A stretch of 60,122 nt of DNA from the IMG/VR virus record IMGVR_UViG_2851938318_000007. One strand, written 5' to 3'. This stretch comes from a virus (lineage: Duplodnaviria; Heunggongvirae; Uroviricota; Caudoviricetes). Position numbers: made by a program. This document shows positions 15,001 through 18,000 of the stretch, piece by piece; position 1 is the first letter of the stretch, and each line of letters begins with the position of its first letter.

Positions 15001-18000
15001 TCTATTGCTGATCTAAAAGCGTTTGTAATAATTCGTATTAAAAGAGCTTTAATCTTACGATCTGAAAGATCTGCATTTGATATCTGAAGATTAAAATCAA
15101 GATACTTTTTCCCAAGCAATGATTTTAATGAATTAATAAAAGCTTCTTTAAAAATATCTAAACTTTCTCCAACTCTACGTTGGTAATAAGAACTAGGATT
15201 TATGGGGAAGGTGACCTTCAAAATATCAAAAGAGCTTACTTTAGTACTTAGTAAGTGTATATCATCTAGATCCGTTTGTATTTTTTTCGGGGAGGCATAG
15301 TCTAACCATGTTATTGATGGTTTAGAAAAACTATAATCAAGAATAAAGTCATGAGCTGATATTAGCTTACAATCAATACAATTATAAGGCAAATTATATT
15401 TTTGTCTGATGTGAGTAGACTCTTGTTCTTCGAGAGAAATCATATCAGAAAGAGCGATACGATTATGCATGATTCTAAAATCTTCAAGCATCGGACCACC
15501 AAAACCTATATATGTATATTCTTGAATATTTAGTCTTTTGCTTAAGAGGTTTAGGCTTTCGAGAAAAATCTCTCTATCAATAGACTTATTATGCCTTAAG
15601 TGATAGGGAATGTATTGTCCAGACATCACTTCACCTCTTCAATCACCGTATCAAAGCATTGCATCCCCACATCAGAAGCGCTAGCATCTTCATGTCCAAA
15701 GAAATATTTAGATAAAATTTTAACATCTTCTTTCTCTCTGGTGAAGATTATTCGTACAGTAGAGCTTTTTTTTACTGGGGTAGGCAGCTTAGGTGTATAT
15801 CGCCACTCATTTTTGTTTCTATTAGGGTTGGACCAGTTATTTTTTTTATCTTCTGGAGTTGATTGTGGGGTAATTTCAAATAAAGATTGAGCTTCATGTG
15901 ACTGAGCTGACTTAAGTAATTTTTTCCCTTCTTCAAGATGCTCACCTTTCCACTGATTGGTGAATCGAATAAAATGCATCATCCCTTCAATCATTTTATT
16001 TCGTACATCATTGTACAATGTAGAACTAAGATCGACACCTCGTTTCGTTGTTGTTATTGGTAATTTTTCTGGGTTTTTACTGGTAAAGCGAACAACCCCA
16101 GAAATTGCTATAAATTGGGTATGAAACCTTGGTACATTAGCAAAGCCCCAACCTGTGAGATGTGTCTTATCACAATATAGAACAACGCGGTCATTGCAAA
16201 TGACAGTCCATCCAGCATCATCAGAACTCCTTTTTTCTAAAACATCATCATTGTCATCTTCTAAATTTTTATAGAAGCCAACAACTAAATCGATATCAAC
16301 ATCGTCTATTTTAGCTTTATATATGTATGGTTCTATTTTAGAATGATCAGTTATGATGTTAATCGGATTATGTTCAACAACAACTCCATTTAATTCTATT
16401 TTAAATCCTTTTTGAATAATAAATGACAATGAGTGTTTTATCTGTAAAAAGAGATCAGTAAGATATGTGCTCTCATTAAATTTTTGTGCCACATTAGAAT
16501 GGAGTTTTTTTATCTCTATAGTTGTGCCTGTTGGATTTTTGTTATCATAGTCACTCTCGTGCATCGGTATTTTCCAACCATCACCATCGATCCAATCAGG
16601 TGTTATATCTACAGTGAATGCGCCATCGGGATTATTCGATTGTATTGAGCAATCTCTACCCATTTTAAAAATGGCTCTTTTCATACCAATACCATAGACG
16701 CCAACGGTGCCTTCATTTTCTTCTTCTTTTTGATGGGGTCGTCCCATTTTAAAAGCATATTCTCGGAAGCTTTTAGGGATACCTCCGCAATTGTCTTCTA
16801 TAATAAAGACATCTTTATTAATCGTAAGTTTCGCATAAAATCCTTCATATGGTTTTGAAGTTTTTTTTGTGTCTTTTATTGTACGTAAAGCCCCATCGAC
16901 GCAGTTATCAAGCAGATCAAGTATGGCATCGTTTAAGTCGATATCTCGAGTTAGCATACTTACAAAAAATCTTTTACTAGGACTAAAGTCTGCTGTTGGA
17001 GTCGTGTTCTCAGTCATAATTTACTCTCTATGTGTTTGGGAAAATAAATACCTTAAGTGCAAATTGTTGATTTTAAACGCTTCGCATGCGAAGTCAACGA
17101 TGTTAAGAAAGAAAGTGCATGTGATCTAACAGTATGTTTTTAAAAAAAGATTAGCTTTATGAGAATTCAGGACTGAATCCCGTGAGAGGAAAATAACATA
17201 TGTTATTGTTGCATTGCTGTGTTGTTTGGGATTTGTTGCACCATTCTGGCGTTGGTATATCTAGTTCGTTGTTCATTTTGTTAATTGTACAACAGGCAGA
17301 CAACAGAGAGCTTTTAGCCTAGTTAGCTTACGAAATTAAACAACTAAGATTATCGGCGGGGAGTGGTCACCGCTACTCTTTGGCTAGGAGACTTCAACGC
17401 AACCGCACACAACCAGCTTCGGCGGGTTTTGTTTTTTCCTGGCATTCTGGTTTACAATTTGCGTGCTAGCTTGAACAACTGGCATCTGCTGCACTGCGCC
17501 ATCGAGAGATTGAGAAATGGCGCATATACAACTGGTCAAACAAACTTCTTCTGGTTTACTTCTCCCGGCGACGCCGGAGAGTTGCGATTTTCTGCATCAA
17601 ATCAAAATAGGTGAGTGGATACACGCAGATTTTAAGCGTGTGCGTAACTACGCATTCCACAAGCGTTTTTTCAAACTCCTGCAACTGGGATTCGATTACT
17701 GGACTCCGGTCGGTGGGGCGATCACGCCTCGCGAACGAGAACTGCTGTCTGGTTTCGTTGATTACCTGTGCGAATCAGTTGGTCGGGAACACACGCCAGC
17801 CCTGAGTGATGCCGCAGAGCAATACCTTAACACCGTTGCGACTCGTAGAACCCGGGATACGGCGTTGCTAAAGTCGTTTGAGGCTTTCCGCGAGTGGGTA
17901 ACCATTCAGGCCGGATTTTACACCGAGCATATTTATCCGGACGGTAGCCGTGGGCGTCGGGCAAAATCCATCGCTTTTGCGAATATGGACGAAGTCGAGT

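What the first reader, a model, noticed from the sequence alone, without database searches (positions are those of the whole stretch)
15626..17017. GHKL ATPase with all four Bergerat-fold motifs but an uncharacterized 160-residue C-terminal extension
Motifs in canonical order: LDLLDNCVDGA (N-box), IIEDNCGGIP (G1), VGVYGIGMKRAIF (G2), NPTGTTIEI (motif IV). This places the protein in the GHKL family (gyrase B / Hsp90 / histidine kinase / MutL / MORC). The C-terminal portion has no motif I can recognise and may carry the target-sensing or effector-coupling function.
Basis: seen in the sequence. Interest (0 to 1): 0.7.

Follow-up and report, generated by a model that had tools for sequence, protein, structure and literature searches.

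The report
MORC-like ATPase of a methylation-linked module
The gene encodes a MORC-like ATP-driven clamp protein that always travels with a methyltransferase-like partner, usually beside a DNA cytosine methylase and sometimes inside DISARM anti-phage operons, so it is probably part of an untested, nuclease-less bacterial defence module carried by this E. coli prophage.

Summary

The gene sits in a low-GC, three-gene island in the nin region of a Rac-like EHEC prophage. The island holds a C5-cytosine methyltransferase (essentially PDB 3g7u), this ATPase, and a translationally coupled PF20553 protein with an RsmD/Trm1-like SAM-methyltransferase fold.

Across 80 genomes from many phyla, the partner lies directly downstream in 76 of 78 loci. 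A related Dcm is nearby in 67 of 80, and Vsr in 33 of 80. A sister subfamily sits inside class-1 DISARM operons in 4 of 5 contexts read. No nuclease domain is recognisable, PADLOC has no model, and no paper was found.

My best reading is a methylation-gated, R-M-like immunity module driven by a MORC-type clamp. Function and effector step are inferred, not shown. I rate it a new variant of a known kind (MORC/paraMORC ATPases in R-M contexts, Iyer et al. 2008), of moderate to high interest.

The parts
15626..17017 (-). Gene for the 463-aa MORC-type GHKL+S5 ATPase (RefSeq WP_000138556.1, annotated 'ATP-binding protein')
16478..17017 (-). Bergerat-fold ATP-binding domain (residues 1-180). It includes the conserved N-terminal segment 13-26, motif I (16889-16921), motif II (16775-16804), a low-confidence ATP-lid loop (residues 97-107), motif III (16667-16705) and motif IV (16511-16537).
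   Evidence: Motif positions. Invariant residues. pLDDT profile and secondary structure.
15953..16471 (-). S5-type transducer domain (residues ~183-355). It carries the MORC signature GWTVICNDRVV (residues 269-279, nt 16181-16213) and the invariant-lysine loop TTTKRG (residues 322-327, nt 16037-16054).
15629..15952 (-). Family-specific C-terminal tail (residues 356-463), mixed helix and strand, pLDDT 73-93, moderately conserved (invariant P412 and F455). It has no conserved acidic or His cluster. Its role (partner docking or dimerisation) is inferred only.
   Evidence: No Pfam hit. The tail is replaced by a different, longer C-terminus in the 563-658 aa paralogues.
14637..15626 (-). Partner gene: 329-aa PF20553 (Methyltransf_35) protein with a class-I SAM-methyltransferase fold. 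Its ATG shares one base with the ATPase stop codon (TGATG).
13518..14669 (+). C5-cytosine DNA methyltransferase (Dcm type), convergent with the pair. Its 3' end overlaps the partner gene's 3' end by 33 nt.
   Evidence: Pfam DNA_methylase E 2.6e-61. Near-identical to PDB 3g7u, E 1.3e-254. A related Dcm lies within 7 kb in 67 of 80 loci, and 50 of those are 50-64% identical to the window's.
17070..17097 (-). Sigma-70-like promoter candidate (TTGACT-16-TAAAAT) 53 nt upstream of the ATPase start. It would drive the pair antisense to the phage early-right operon.
   Evidence: Consensus scan. The number of sites found was not above the shuffle expectation, so this is only a candidate.
13456..13485 (+). 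Sigma-70-like promoter candidate with an extended -10 (TTAAAA-18-TG-TATAAT) upstream of the Dcm gene.
   Evidence: Consensus scan. Candidate only.
14595..14630 (.). 14-bp inverted repeat with an 8-nt loop at the convergent 3' ends of the Dcm and partner genes. It is a possible bidirectional terminator.
   Evidence: Inverted repeat I16. Not tested.

Best explanation
The ORF encodes the ATPase subunit of a conserved two-protein module. The module is a MORC-type GHKL+S5 ATPase translationally coupled to an RsmD/Trm1-like SAM-methyltransferase-fold protein (PF20553). In this prophage the pair forms a three-gene, low-GC cargo island with a dedicated C5-cytosine methyltransferase.

The most likely working is a methylation-gated, R-M-like immunity or exclusion module. 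In this model Dcm marks resident DNA. Like other GHKL+S5 enzymes, the ATPase would bind ATP in the Bergerat fold, dimerise through its N-terminal region, and close the S5 domain so that Lys325 reaches the gamma-phosphate, forming a DNA clamp. Together with the methyltransferase-fold partner it would engage unmarked incoming DNA and block its replication or expression without a dedicated nuclease, as is thought for BREX and DISARM.

Shown here: the domain architecture, the strict pairing, the linkage to Dcm and Vsr, and the embedding in DISARM operons. Inferred: ATPase activity, dimeric clamping, self/non-self logic, the role of the tail, and the effector step.

For: Pairing: the genes overlap by one base. 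The partner is directly downstream on the same strand in 76 of 78 loci from Cyanobacteria, Nitrospirota, Chloroflexi, Firmicutes, Planctomycetes and an archaeon.

Methylation link: a related Dcm lies within 7 kb in 67 of 80 loci, and 50 of those are 50-64% identical to the window's, making Dcm more conserved than the ATPase itself. Co-directional Dcm-ATPase-partner(-Vsr) operons are the commonest layout.

Defence context: a sister subfamily lies between drmMI and drmA inside class-1 DISARM operons in 4 of 5 contexts read. The triad also sits at the end of a Pf-like inovirus prophage. Neighbouring genes include PD-Lambda-5, MADS, PD-T4-6, restriction-enzyme and integrase genes.

In the window itself: the island has 33-39% GC against ~50% in its flanks, and lies between the replication and Q-antiterminator genes. 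It is antisense to the early operon and has its own promoter-like site. It occurs in 173 of 5426 complete E. coli genomes, always on the chromosome. Iyer et al. 2008 (PMC2292703) predicted that MORC/paraMORC ATPases work in R-M systems.
Against: No experiment supports any of this. No anti-phage phenotype has been reported, PADLOC v2 has no model for either protein, and no paper was found.

No nuclease or other obvious effector domain is recognisable in the ATPase tail or the partner, so 'restriction' has no visible executioner.

Cyanobacterial loci carry the pair without an adjacent Dcm, among housekeeping genes. The Dcm genes near DISARM-embedded pairs are only 24-25% identical to the window's, so the Dcm dependence is not universal.

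The general-base position is Asp, not Glu, which may mean slow hydrolysis.

The 80 loci were retrieved with family-specific peptide patterns, and neighbours were called with a crude ORF finder.
Confidence: 0.5

Rival explanations
1. Second-line abortive-infection module of the PrrC/RloC type. The MORC-like ATPase monitors the state of the methylation system or of invading DNA. When triggered, it unleashes the partner as an RNA methyltransferase that modifies tRNA or rRNA and shuts down translation in the infected cell.
For: All of the partner's best structural matches are RNA methyltransferases: RsmD-like HI0767 and Rv2966c, Trm1, RlmK/YccW, RlmCD and KsgA. The SAM-binding motif residues are conserved. 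Many invariant Arg, Lys and Tyr residues fit a nucleic-acid substrate. Anantharaman et al. (PMC3710099) proposed that paraMORC-HEPN fusions in R-M neighbourhoods act like PrrC. This reading would also explain why no nuclease is present.
Against: Structural similarity covers only the generic Rossmann core, ~150-200 of 330 residues at 8-14% identity. Motif IV (WLDYASP) is not the canonical (D/N)PP(Y/F). No RNA-binding domain was identified, and there is no experimental hint. The tight co-evolution with one Dcm clade fits a DNA-directed activity better.
Confidence: 0.15
2. Not immunity but upkeep of the 5mC mark. The ATPase is a MutL-like helper that stimulates a Vsr-type endonuclease to repair T:G mismatches arising from 5-methylcytosine deamination. 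The cassette would then be a self-contained Dcm + very-short-patch-repair package that lowers the mutational cost of a mobile methylase.
Against: The window island has no vsr, and 59% of loci lack it. This reading gives no role to the invariably coupled methyltransferase-fold partner. The pair occurs without Dcm in cyanobacteria. It also occurs inside DISARM operons whose main methylase makes N6-methyladenine, where deamination repair is irrelevant. Vsr commonly accompanies Dcm genes of ordinary R-M systems.
Confidence: 0.15
3. A DNA hypermodification or anti-restriction cassette serving the phage. Dcm, the second methyltransferase and the ATPase would together install a compound or additional DNA modification that protects the prophage's (and host's) DNA from other restriction systems.
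For: There are two methyltransferase-fold genes in one island of a temperate phage. The Dcm gene lies on the strand of the early-right operon, so read-through could express it during lytic growth. The triad is also carried by an inovirus.
Against: Most family members are chromosomal and not in phages: only 1 of 50,697 phage records has a match. A GHKL+S5 clamp ATPase has no precedent in base-modification pathways, to my knowledge. The presence of Vsr implies the product is plain 5mC. Embedding between DISARM core genes fits defence, not counter-defence.
Confidence: 0.1
4. An ordinary housekeeping GHKL protein or fragment (MutL, GyrB/ParE, HtpG or a sensor kinase) that was mis-read as special.
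For: It shares the fold with all of these. There are weak NCBIfam hits to the sensor kinase DpiB (E 0.003) and to MzaB (E 0.037), both far below cut-off.
Against: phmmer finds no PDB match. There is no MutL C-terminal domain, no Toprim domain and no DHp domain. The gene lies in a low-GC prophage island present in only 3% of E. coli genomes. It belongs to a distinct full-length family of more than 5,000 clusters with an obligate partner.
Confidence: 0.01

Closest known systems
MORC / paraMORC GHKL+S5 ATPases of prokaryotic restriction-modification neighbourhoods (Iyer, Abhiman & Aravind 2008, PMC2292703); structural prototypes are eukaryotic MORC2, MORC3 and SMCHD1
   Different: There is no coiled coil, CW zinc finger or other eukaryotic C-terminal domain. 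Instead there is a ~108-residue tail of its own. The obligate partner has a SAM-methyltransferase fold rather than being a helicase or nuclease. The general base is Asp, not Glu. Sequence similarity to MORCs is marginal (E 0.03), and Foldseek ranks Hsp90 slightly higher. I could not determine which of the 2008 families (MORC proper or paraMORC1-5) it was filed under, because the supplementary lists are not held.
DISARM class 1 (DrmD, DrmMI, DrmA, DrmB, DrmC; Ofir et al. 2018, from memory; Aparicio-Maldonado et al., bioRxiv 2021.12.28.474362)
   Same: A sister subfamily of the pair (38% identical ATPase) sits between drmMI and drmA in one co-directional operon in Microvirga, Ferribacterium, Burkholderia and Massilia. 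Both are methylation-linked and lack an essential nuclease.
   Different: The window has no drmA, drmB, drmC or drmD, so the island is not a DISARM system. The characterised Serratia class-1 system is described without these two genes. The role of the pair in DISARM is unknown.
Type II restriction-modification systems with ATP-dependent, multi-subunit restriction components next to a Dcm gene (for example BceSIV, CglI and NgoAVII, from memory; cited via PMC9523054)
   Same: A C5-cytosine methylase, often with Vsr, lies beside an NTPase-containing putative restriction component. The cassette is mobile and patchily distributed.
MutL N-terminal domain (mismatch repair; stimulates MutH and Vsr)
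   Different: It has no MutL C-terminal dimerisation/endonuclease domain and is not a housekeeping gene. Sequence similarity is undetectable. It scores closer to MORCs than to MutL.
VcSduA / paraMORC3-type Shedu (GHKL ATPase fused to a DUF4263 nuclease; PMC12137116)
   Same: It is an anti-phage protein with an N-terminal GHKL ATPase carrying motifs I-IV, whose ATPase mutant loses defence. This shows that GHKL ATPases can drive bacterial immunity.
   Different: VcSduA carries its own PD-(D/E)xK nuclease and works alone. The window protein has no nuclease and depends on a separate partner. There is no detectable PADLOC match.

Membership tests
GHKL (Bergerat-fold) ATPase superfamily | Motif I (N-box) with the Mg-binding Asn and an acidic general base four residues upstream | tested here: met
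   The sequence is D34-L-L-D-N38-C-V-D41-G42, all invariant in 82 homologues. The acidic residue is Asp rather than the usual Glu, which is a deviation of unknown kinetic consequence.
GHKL (Bergerat-fold) ATPase superfamily | Motif II (DxGxG-type, adenine contact), motif III (GxxGxG, phosphate loop after a flexible lid) and motif IV (G-T) | tested here: met
   D75-N-C-G78-G79, G106-V-Y-G109-I-G111 and G164-T165 are invariant or at least 90% conserved. The lid loop at residues 97-107 has pLDDT below 50. Pfam HATPase_c_3 scores above the gathering cut-off.
GHKL (Bergerat-fold) ATPase superfamily | ATP binding and hydrolysis | not testable with these tools
   This needs purified protein. It is inferred only from intact motifs.
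GHKL+S5 'GHL' subgroup (MutL, type II topoisomerase, Hsp90, MORC) | An S5-fold transducer domain after the Bergerat fold that contributes a conserved Lys or Arg to the ATP site | tested here: met
MORC family sensu Iyer et al. 2008 | The S5-domain signature G-h-x-h-h-p-x-x-R-h-l, which separates MORCs from other GHKL proteins | tested here: met
   GWTVICNDRVV lies at residues 269-279 on S5 strands E269-274 and E277-283. It is present in 82 of 82 homologues against 32 of 20000 shuffles. This is a pattern match only. I could not check alignment register against true MORCs residue by residue.
MORC family sensu Iyer et al. 2008 | Closer to MORCs than to other GHKL+S5 families by sequence or structure | tested here: inconclusive
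Type II restriction-modification system | A cognate DNA methyltransferase | tested here: met
   Dcm-type methyltransferase at 13518-14669. It is co-conserved in 67 of 80 loci.
Type II restriction-modification system | A restriction endonuclease with a recognisable nuclease domain | tested here: not met
   No nuclease family or fold was detected in the ATPase or the partner. There is no conserved acidic or His cluster in the tail. Vsr is present in only 41% of loci and is absent from the window island.
DISARM | The core genes drmA (helicase), drmB (DUF1998/MZB) and drmC (PLD) | tested here: not met
   They are absent from the window island and its flanks. They are present only around the sister subfamily in other genomes.
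MutL | A C-terminal dimerisation/endonuclease domain and a housekeeping role alongside MutS | tested here: not met
   There is no Pfam MutL_C or DNA_mis_repair hit. The gene is prophage cargo present in 3% of E. coli genomes.
Class-I SAM-dependent methyltransferases (the partner protein, PF20553) | A Rossmann-like seven-strand fold with a glycine-rich motif I, an acidic motif II and an Asp-containing motif IV | tested here: met

The most novel reading that the evidence does not exclude
The pair is a nuclease-free, methylation-gated immune effector. A bacterial MORC-type clamp, guided by a methyltransferase-fold partner that reads or marks unmethylated sites, compacts, silences or chemically flags invading DNA. 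It would work either alone with a Dcm, as in this prophage, or as an unrecognised component of class-1 DISARM. That would make it a prokaryotic counterpart, and a possible ancestor, of eukaryotic MORC-mediated, DNA-methylation-linked silencing of transposons.
Probability: 0.25. Interest if true: 0.85.

Novelty: new variant of a known kind. Interest (0 to 1): 0.62.

Why it matters
This matters for three reasons, all conditional on the reading being right.

(1) It would add a widespread, untested module to the list of bacterial defence systems. The ATPase has more than 5,000 clusters at 90% identity. The partner has about 2,200 clusters at 50% identity. A deliberately narrow motif scan found the ATPase in at least 352 of about 100,000 species. 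The module is carried by prophages of EHEC lineages and by a Pseudomonas Pf phage.

(2) It would give a tractable bacterial model for how MORC-type GHKL ATPases couple ATP-driven clamping to a DNA-methylation mark. This question is open for eukaryotic MORCs.

(3) It may supply a missing piece of DISARM, whose effector mechanism is unresolved and whose nuclease DrmC is dispensable. Many proteobacterial class-1 DISARM operons contain this pair between drmMI and drmA, and the DISARM papers I could read do not mention it.

In practical terms, the island is a 3.7-kb cassette with its own promoters, so it could be cloned and tested directly.

Tried and rejected
- PADLOC, NCBIfam and PHROGs gave no functional name for the ATPase or the partner. 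PHROG families 20521 and 19983 are listed as 'unknown function'.
- Sequence searches of the PDB with the single protein, and with the S5 region alone, gave nothing meaningful. The family profile gave only weak MORC3/MORC4 hits.
- Pfam scans of the S5 region and the tail on their own found no family.
- I suspected that the longer paralogous GHKL proteins next to Dcm (563-658 aa) were PD-Lambda-5_A, which would have tied the family to a validated system. This is rejected: they have no PADLOC hit. The PD-Lambda-5_A hits belong to other neighbouring genes, probably the AAA_15/AAA_21 ATPases seen (inference).
- I looked for informative domain fusions of the partner with an exhaustive profile search. 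All of the best 150 of 2,211 hits are stand-alone proteins of 302-381 aa or shorter fragments.
- I looked for nuclease signatures in the tail and the partner, such as PD-(D/E)xK, HNH or a MutL-type metal site. None is conserved.
- I looked for conserved extra genes in 80 loci. Only Vsr recurs.
- Eight literature searches found no paper on this pair. They covered PF20553, the three WP accessions, GHKL with O-methyltransferase, paraMORC, MORC with anti-phage, HATPase_c_3 with defence, MORC-like with DISARM, and 3G7U/CP-933R.
- The AlphaFold-database fold libraries were unavailable.
- Repeat and Rfam scans of the island showed nothing relevant to it.
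Full report
**1. The observation**

The ORF is exactly as reported: 15626..17017, minus strand, ATG start, 463 aa. The four quoted motifs occur in canonical order at residues 33-43, 72-81, 105-117 and 161-169. Pfam HATPase_c_3 matches residues 28-132 above its gathering score (E 2.9e-9). In an alignment of 82 homologues at 44-85% identity, the diagnostic residues are invariant: D34, D37, N38, D41, G42, D75, N76, G78, G79, G106, Y108, G109, G111 and G164. The GHKL call is therefore sound.

Two things need correcting. First, 294 residues follow motif IV, not 160. Second, the residue at the general-base position, four before Asn38, is an invariant Asp rather than the Glu I know from GyrB, MutL, Hsp90 and MORCs.

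**2. What the C-terminal part is**

An AlphaFold2 model built on the 82-sequence alignment has mean pLDDT 83.4 and pTM 0.76. Low confidence is confined to the N-terminal four residues, the ATP-lid loop (residues 97-107) and one further loop (256-263).

Alignments of 270-306 residues necessarily run through the domain that follows the roughly 180-residue Bergerat fold. So residues ~183-355 are the S5-type transducer domain of the GHKL+S5 group.

Three further results support this. That region contains the family's best-conserved block after the ATP motifs. It has an invariant Lys325 in the loop TTTKRG, the expected phosphate-sensing basic residue (its role follows from what is established for MutL and GyrB and is stated in PMC2292703). 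It also has the sequence GWTVICNDRVV at 269-279, which fits the signature G-h-x-h-h-p-x-x-R-h-l. Iyer et al. give that signature as the feature uniting MORCs to the exclusion of other GHKL proteins. It is present in 82 of 82 homologues and in 32 of 20,000 shuffles of the protein.

Motif III also has the MORC-like form GxYGxGxK, and the only PDB hits of the family profile are MORC3 and MORC4, though weak (E 0.03-0.07).

One caveat applies. Foldseek places Hsp90/TRAP1 marginally ahead of SMCHD1 and MORC2. The fold class is certain, but the 'MORC-type' label is the best call rather than a proven one.

What remains unexplained is the tail, residues ~356-463. It is confidently modelled and moderately conserved, has no conserved acidic or His cluster, and is replaced by other sequence in longer paralogues.

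**3. The surroundings in the window**

The window is a Rac-like lambdoid prophage of E. coli. It has integrase, RecET, KilR, SieB and repressors on the left, then replication genes, then DUF1367, YbcO, a DUF1133/Q-like antiterminator, lysis genes, terminase and tail genes. T3SS effector genes lie at the right end.

Between the replication genes and the Q region lies a 3.7-kb island of 33-39% GC, against about 50% on either side. It contains three genes:
- a C5-cytosine methyltransferase on the plus strand (13518-14669; Pfam E 2.6e-61), essentially identical to PDB entry 3g7u (E 1.3e-254)
- a 329-aa PF20553 'Methyltransf_35' protein on the minus strand (E 2e-89)
- the ATPase, also on the minus strand

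The ATPase stop codon and the partner's ATG share a base (TGATG). The Dcm and partner genes converge and overlap by 33 nt. A promoter-like TTGACT-16-TAAAAT lies 53 nt upstream of the ATPase (a consensus match only). The island is present, at 99% identity or better and once per genome, in 173 of 5,426 complete E. coli genomes, always on the chromosome. RefSeq calls the three products 'DNA cytosine methyltransferase', 'O-methyltransferase' and 'ATP-binding protein'.

**4. The partner**

In 91 diverse members, the motif I glycines and the motif II Glu are at least 90% conserved and the motif IV Asp is invariant. So are R11, K14, R18, Y39, R74, N78, W107, Y229 and E283. This fits a SAM-binding protein with a nucleic-acid substrate, but activity and substrate are unknown. 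Motif IV (WLDYASP) is not the canonical (D/N)PP(Y/F). No nuclease fold or motif was seen.

An exhaustive profile search finds 2,211 clusters at 50% identity. All of the best 150 are stand-alone proteins of about 300-380 aa or shorter fragments, so there are no informative fusions.

**5. Related loci**

The ATPase family is large (more than 5,430 clusters at 90% identity with E ≤ 0.001) and uniform in length. It is about 45% identical across Cyanobacteria, Gemmatimonadota, Nitrospirota and Proteobacteria.

A scan of one genome per species with two family-specific peptide patterns found 352 carriers, and 80 loci were analysed. They include Firmicutes, Chloroflexi, Planctomycetes, Verrucomicrobia and a methanogen. 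The results were:
- The partner gene is immediately downstream on the same strand in 76 of the 78 loci with room for it, usually with a 4-nt overlap.
- A Dcm gene strongly similar to the window's lies within 7 kb in 67 of 80 loci. Of these, 50 are 50-64% identical to it. That is more conserved than the ATPase (41-47%) or the partner (27-39%).
- Vsr is the only other recurrent neighbour, in 33 of 80 loci.
- The commonest layouts are pair→←Dcm (as in the window), Dcm-ATPase-partner, and Dcm-ATPase-partner-Vsr, all tightly packed. In several loci vsr overlaps the ATPase start (individual examples).
- Nine of the 13 loci without a strongly similar Dcm (one has a weaker match) are cyanobacterial, with the pair sitting among housekeeping genes.

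The nearest other neighbours include integrases and resolvases, as well as PD-Lambda-5, MADS, PD-T4-6, restriction-enzyme and HNH genes. I had no matched control for this enrichment.

Among sequenced phages only a Pf-like Pseudomonas inovirus carries the triad, at the prophage end next to its repressor and excisionase.

The most telling context is a sister subfamily. Its ATPase is 38% identical to the window's, and its members are 79-93% identical among more than 100 clusters of alpha- and beta-proteobacteria. This subfamily lies inside class-1 DISARM operons, in the order drmD - (variable gene) - MmeI/Eco57I-like drmMI - ATPase - partner - drmA - drmB(MZB) - drmC(PLD). All genes are co-directional with minimal gaps. 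This arrangement holds in Microvirga, Ferribacterium, Burkholderia and Massilia, which is 4 of the 5 contexts I read. The fifth, Asticcacaulis, has the pair next to a Dcm, a longer paralogous GHKL and Vsr. The study of the Serratia class-1 system describes DISARM without such genes.

**6. How it most likely works**

*Shown.* This is a GHKL+S5 ATPase of MORC type. It is obligately paired and translationally coupled with a methyltransferase-fold protein. The pair co-evolves with one clade of Dcm, often with Vsr. It is mobile (prophages, an inovirus, islands with integrases), and one branch is integrated into a known methylation-dependent defence system.

*Inferred.* The module is an R-M-like immunity or exclusion device. 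Dcm marks resident DNA. ATP binding dimerises the ATPase into a clamp, as in MutL, GyrB and MORCs. The complex, using the partner either as a base-flipping reader or as a modifying enzyme, then acts on unmarked DNA. Because no nuclease is visible, I favour a non-degradative block of replication or expression, as is thought for BREX and DISARM. I put this at about 0.5.

*Rivals.*
- An abortive-infection variant in which the partner methylates RNA (0.15). All of its best structural relatives are RNA methyltransferases, and paraMORC-HEPN fusions were proposed to act like PrrC.
- A MutL-like helper for Vsr that reduces the mutational cost of 5mC (0.15). This is supported by the operonic vsr. It is weakened by the absence of vsr here and in 59% of loci, by the unexplained partner, and by the DISARM and cyanobacterial contexts.
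- A hypermodification or anti-restriction cassette for the phage (0.1).
- A housekeeping GHKL protein or fragment. This is excluded.

**7. Comparison with what is known**

The closest described kind is the MORC/paraMORC group of GHKL+S5 ATPases, which Iyer, Abhiman and Aravind (2008) predicted to work in R-M systems. They noted a minority of operons that combine MORC genes with methylases but lack helicases, and frequent Dcm and Vsr neighbours. The present protein meets the features I could test: four motifs, an S5 domain with a basic residue, and the MORC signature. I could not map it to one of their named families because the supplementary lists are not held.

It differs from that description in having a methyltransferase-fold protein as its invariable partner, in the Asp general base, and in its own tail. 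It is not a type II R-M system in the strict sense, because the nuclease test was not met. It is not DISARM, because the core genes are absent from the window. It is not MutL.

PADLOC v2 (2023) has no model for either protein. I found no paper on the pair, on PF20553, or on the RefSeq accessions. The library searched is incomplete, so an existing description cannot be excluded.

**8. Verdict**

The feature is a new variant of a known kind: a MORC-type ATPase in a methylation-linked, apparently nuclease-free module that is widespread, prophage-borne and embedded in DISARM operons, but experimentally untouched. Interest is 0.62. The most novel reading not excluded is a bacterial MORC clamp that silences or flags unmethylated invading DNA and forms an unrecognised DISARM component. 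I give it about 0.25 probability, and it would deserve about 0.85 interest if true.

**Limitations**
- All structures are predictions.
- The loci were retrieved with family-specific patterns.
- Neighbour genes were called with a simple ORF finder.
- Model coordinates could not be inspected.
- No complex prediction was possible.

Noticed in passing
window 13518-14669 (+): The island's Dcm methyltransferase is essentially identical to PDB 3g7u, 'Cytosine-specific methyltransferase' (E 1.3e-254 over residues 1-367). A crystal structure therefore already exists for one of the three island proteins. From memory this is a structural-genomics entry from an O157:H7 prophage. Its target sequence appears to be unknown.
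   Followed up: partly
L092 1868-13401; L094, L095 and L097 about 1-19100: Class-1 DISARM operons of alpha- and beta-proteobacteria contain the GHKL + PF20553 pair between drmMI and drmA. Two of them also have a Dcm gene at the operon start. The class-1 DISARM paper I read does not mention these genes.
   Followed up: partly
L006 10672-12498; L026 10752-12443; L047 10609-12327; L069 9457-11220; L083 1246-2973; L084 10008-11753; L096 13743-15719: A paralogous, longer GHKL+S5 protein (563-658 aa) sits next to a Dcm gene, sometimes in the same locus as the 465-aa pair. The Serratia copy is 24% identical to the window protein over the ATPase module, and four of the seven listed carry the same MORC-type signature. 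Its C-terminal ~250 residues are different, helical and unassigned. It has no PADLOC hit.
   Followed up: partly
L091 (Pseudomonas phage PfAC20, PP058144) 280-3711: A filamentous Pf-like prophage carries the whole triad (ATPase 441-445 aa depending on start, partner 317 aa, Dcm 374 aa) at its end, beside the repressor and excisionase. A second Dcm gene lies further in.
   Followed up: partly
window 14595-14630: A 14-bp inverted repeat with an 8-nt loop lies exactly where the convergent Dcm and partner genes overlap. It is a possible bidirectional terminator inside the Dcm coding end.
   Followed up: no
window 1557-1735; 20119-20373: Rfam finds the RalA antitoxin sRNA (next to ralR). It also finds the prophage sRNAs STnc100 and AgvB (anti-GcvB), back to back between the TerB-family gene and the SASA-family esterase.
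   Followed up: no
window 25304-25420 and 54131-54247 (both -): There are two identical ALIL pseudoknot frameshift elements, each inside a ~296-aa minus-strand ORF (24488-25378 and 53315-54205). This indicates two copies of the same IS3-family insertion sequence within the prophage.
   Followed up: no
window 19097-19172 and 19273-19349 (+): The prophage carries two tRNA genes downstream of the Q-like gene. The first has a CAT anticodon: ARAGORN calls it tRNA-Met while RefSeq annotates it tRNA-Ile. The second is tRNA-Arg(TCT).
   Followed up: no
window 51848-52768 (+), 56544-57191 (-), 57375-57965 (+): Low-GC cargo at the right end encodes type III secretion effector families: an OspG/NleH-like kinase, NleG, and an IpaB/EvcA-family protein. 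This confirms an EHEC-type effector-carrying prophage.
   Followed up: partly
L012, L014, L019, L023, L027, L028, L042, L061, L074: In filamentous cyanobacteria the pair (the ATPase alone in L074) has no adjacent Dcm and lies among housekeeping genes such as NADH dehydrogenase subunits. This suggests it relies on an unlinked methylase, or on none at all.
   Followed up: no
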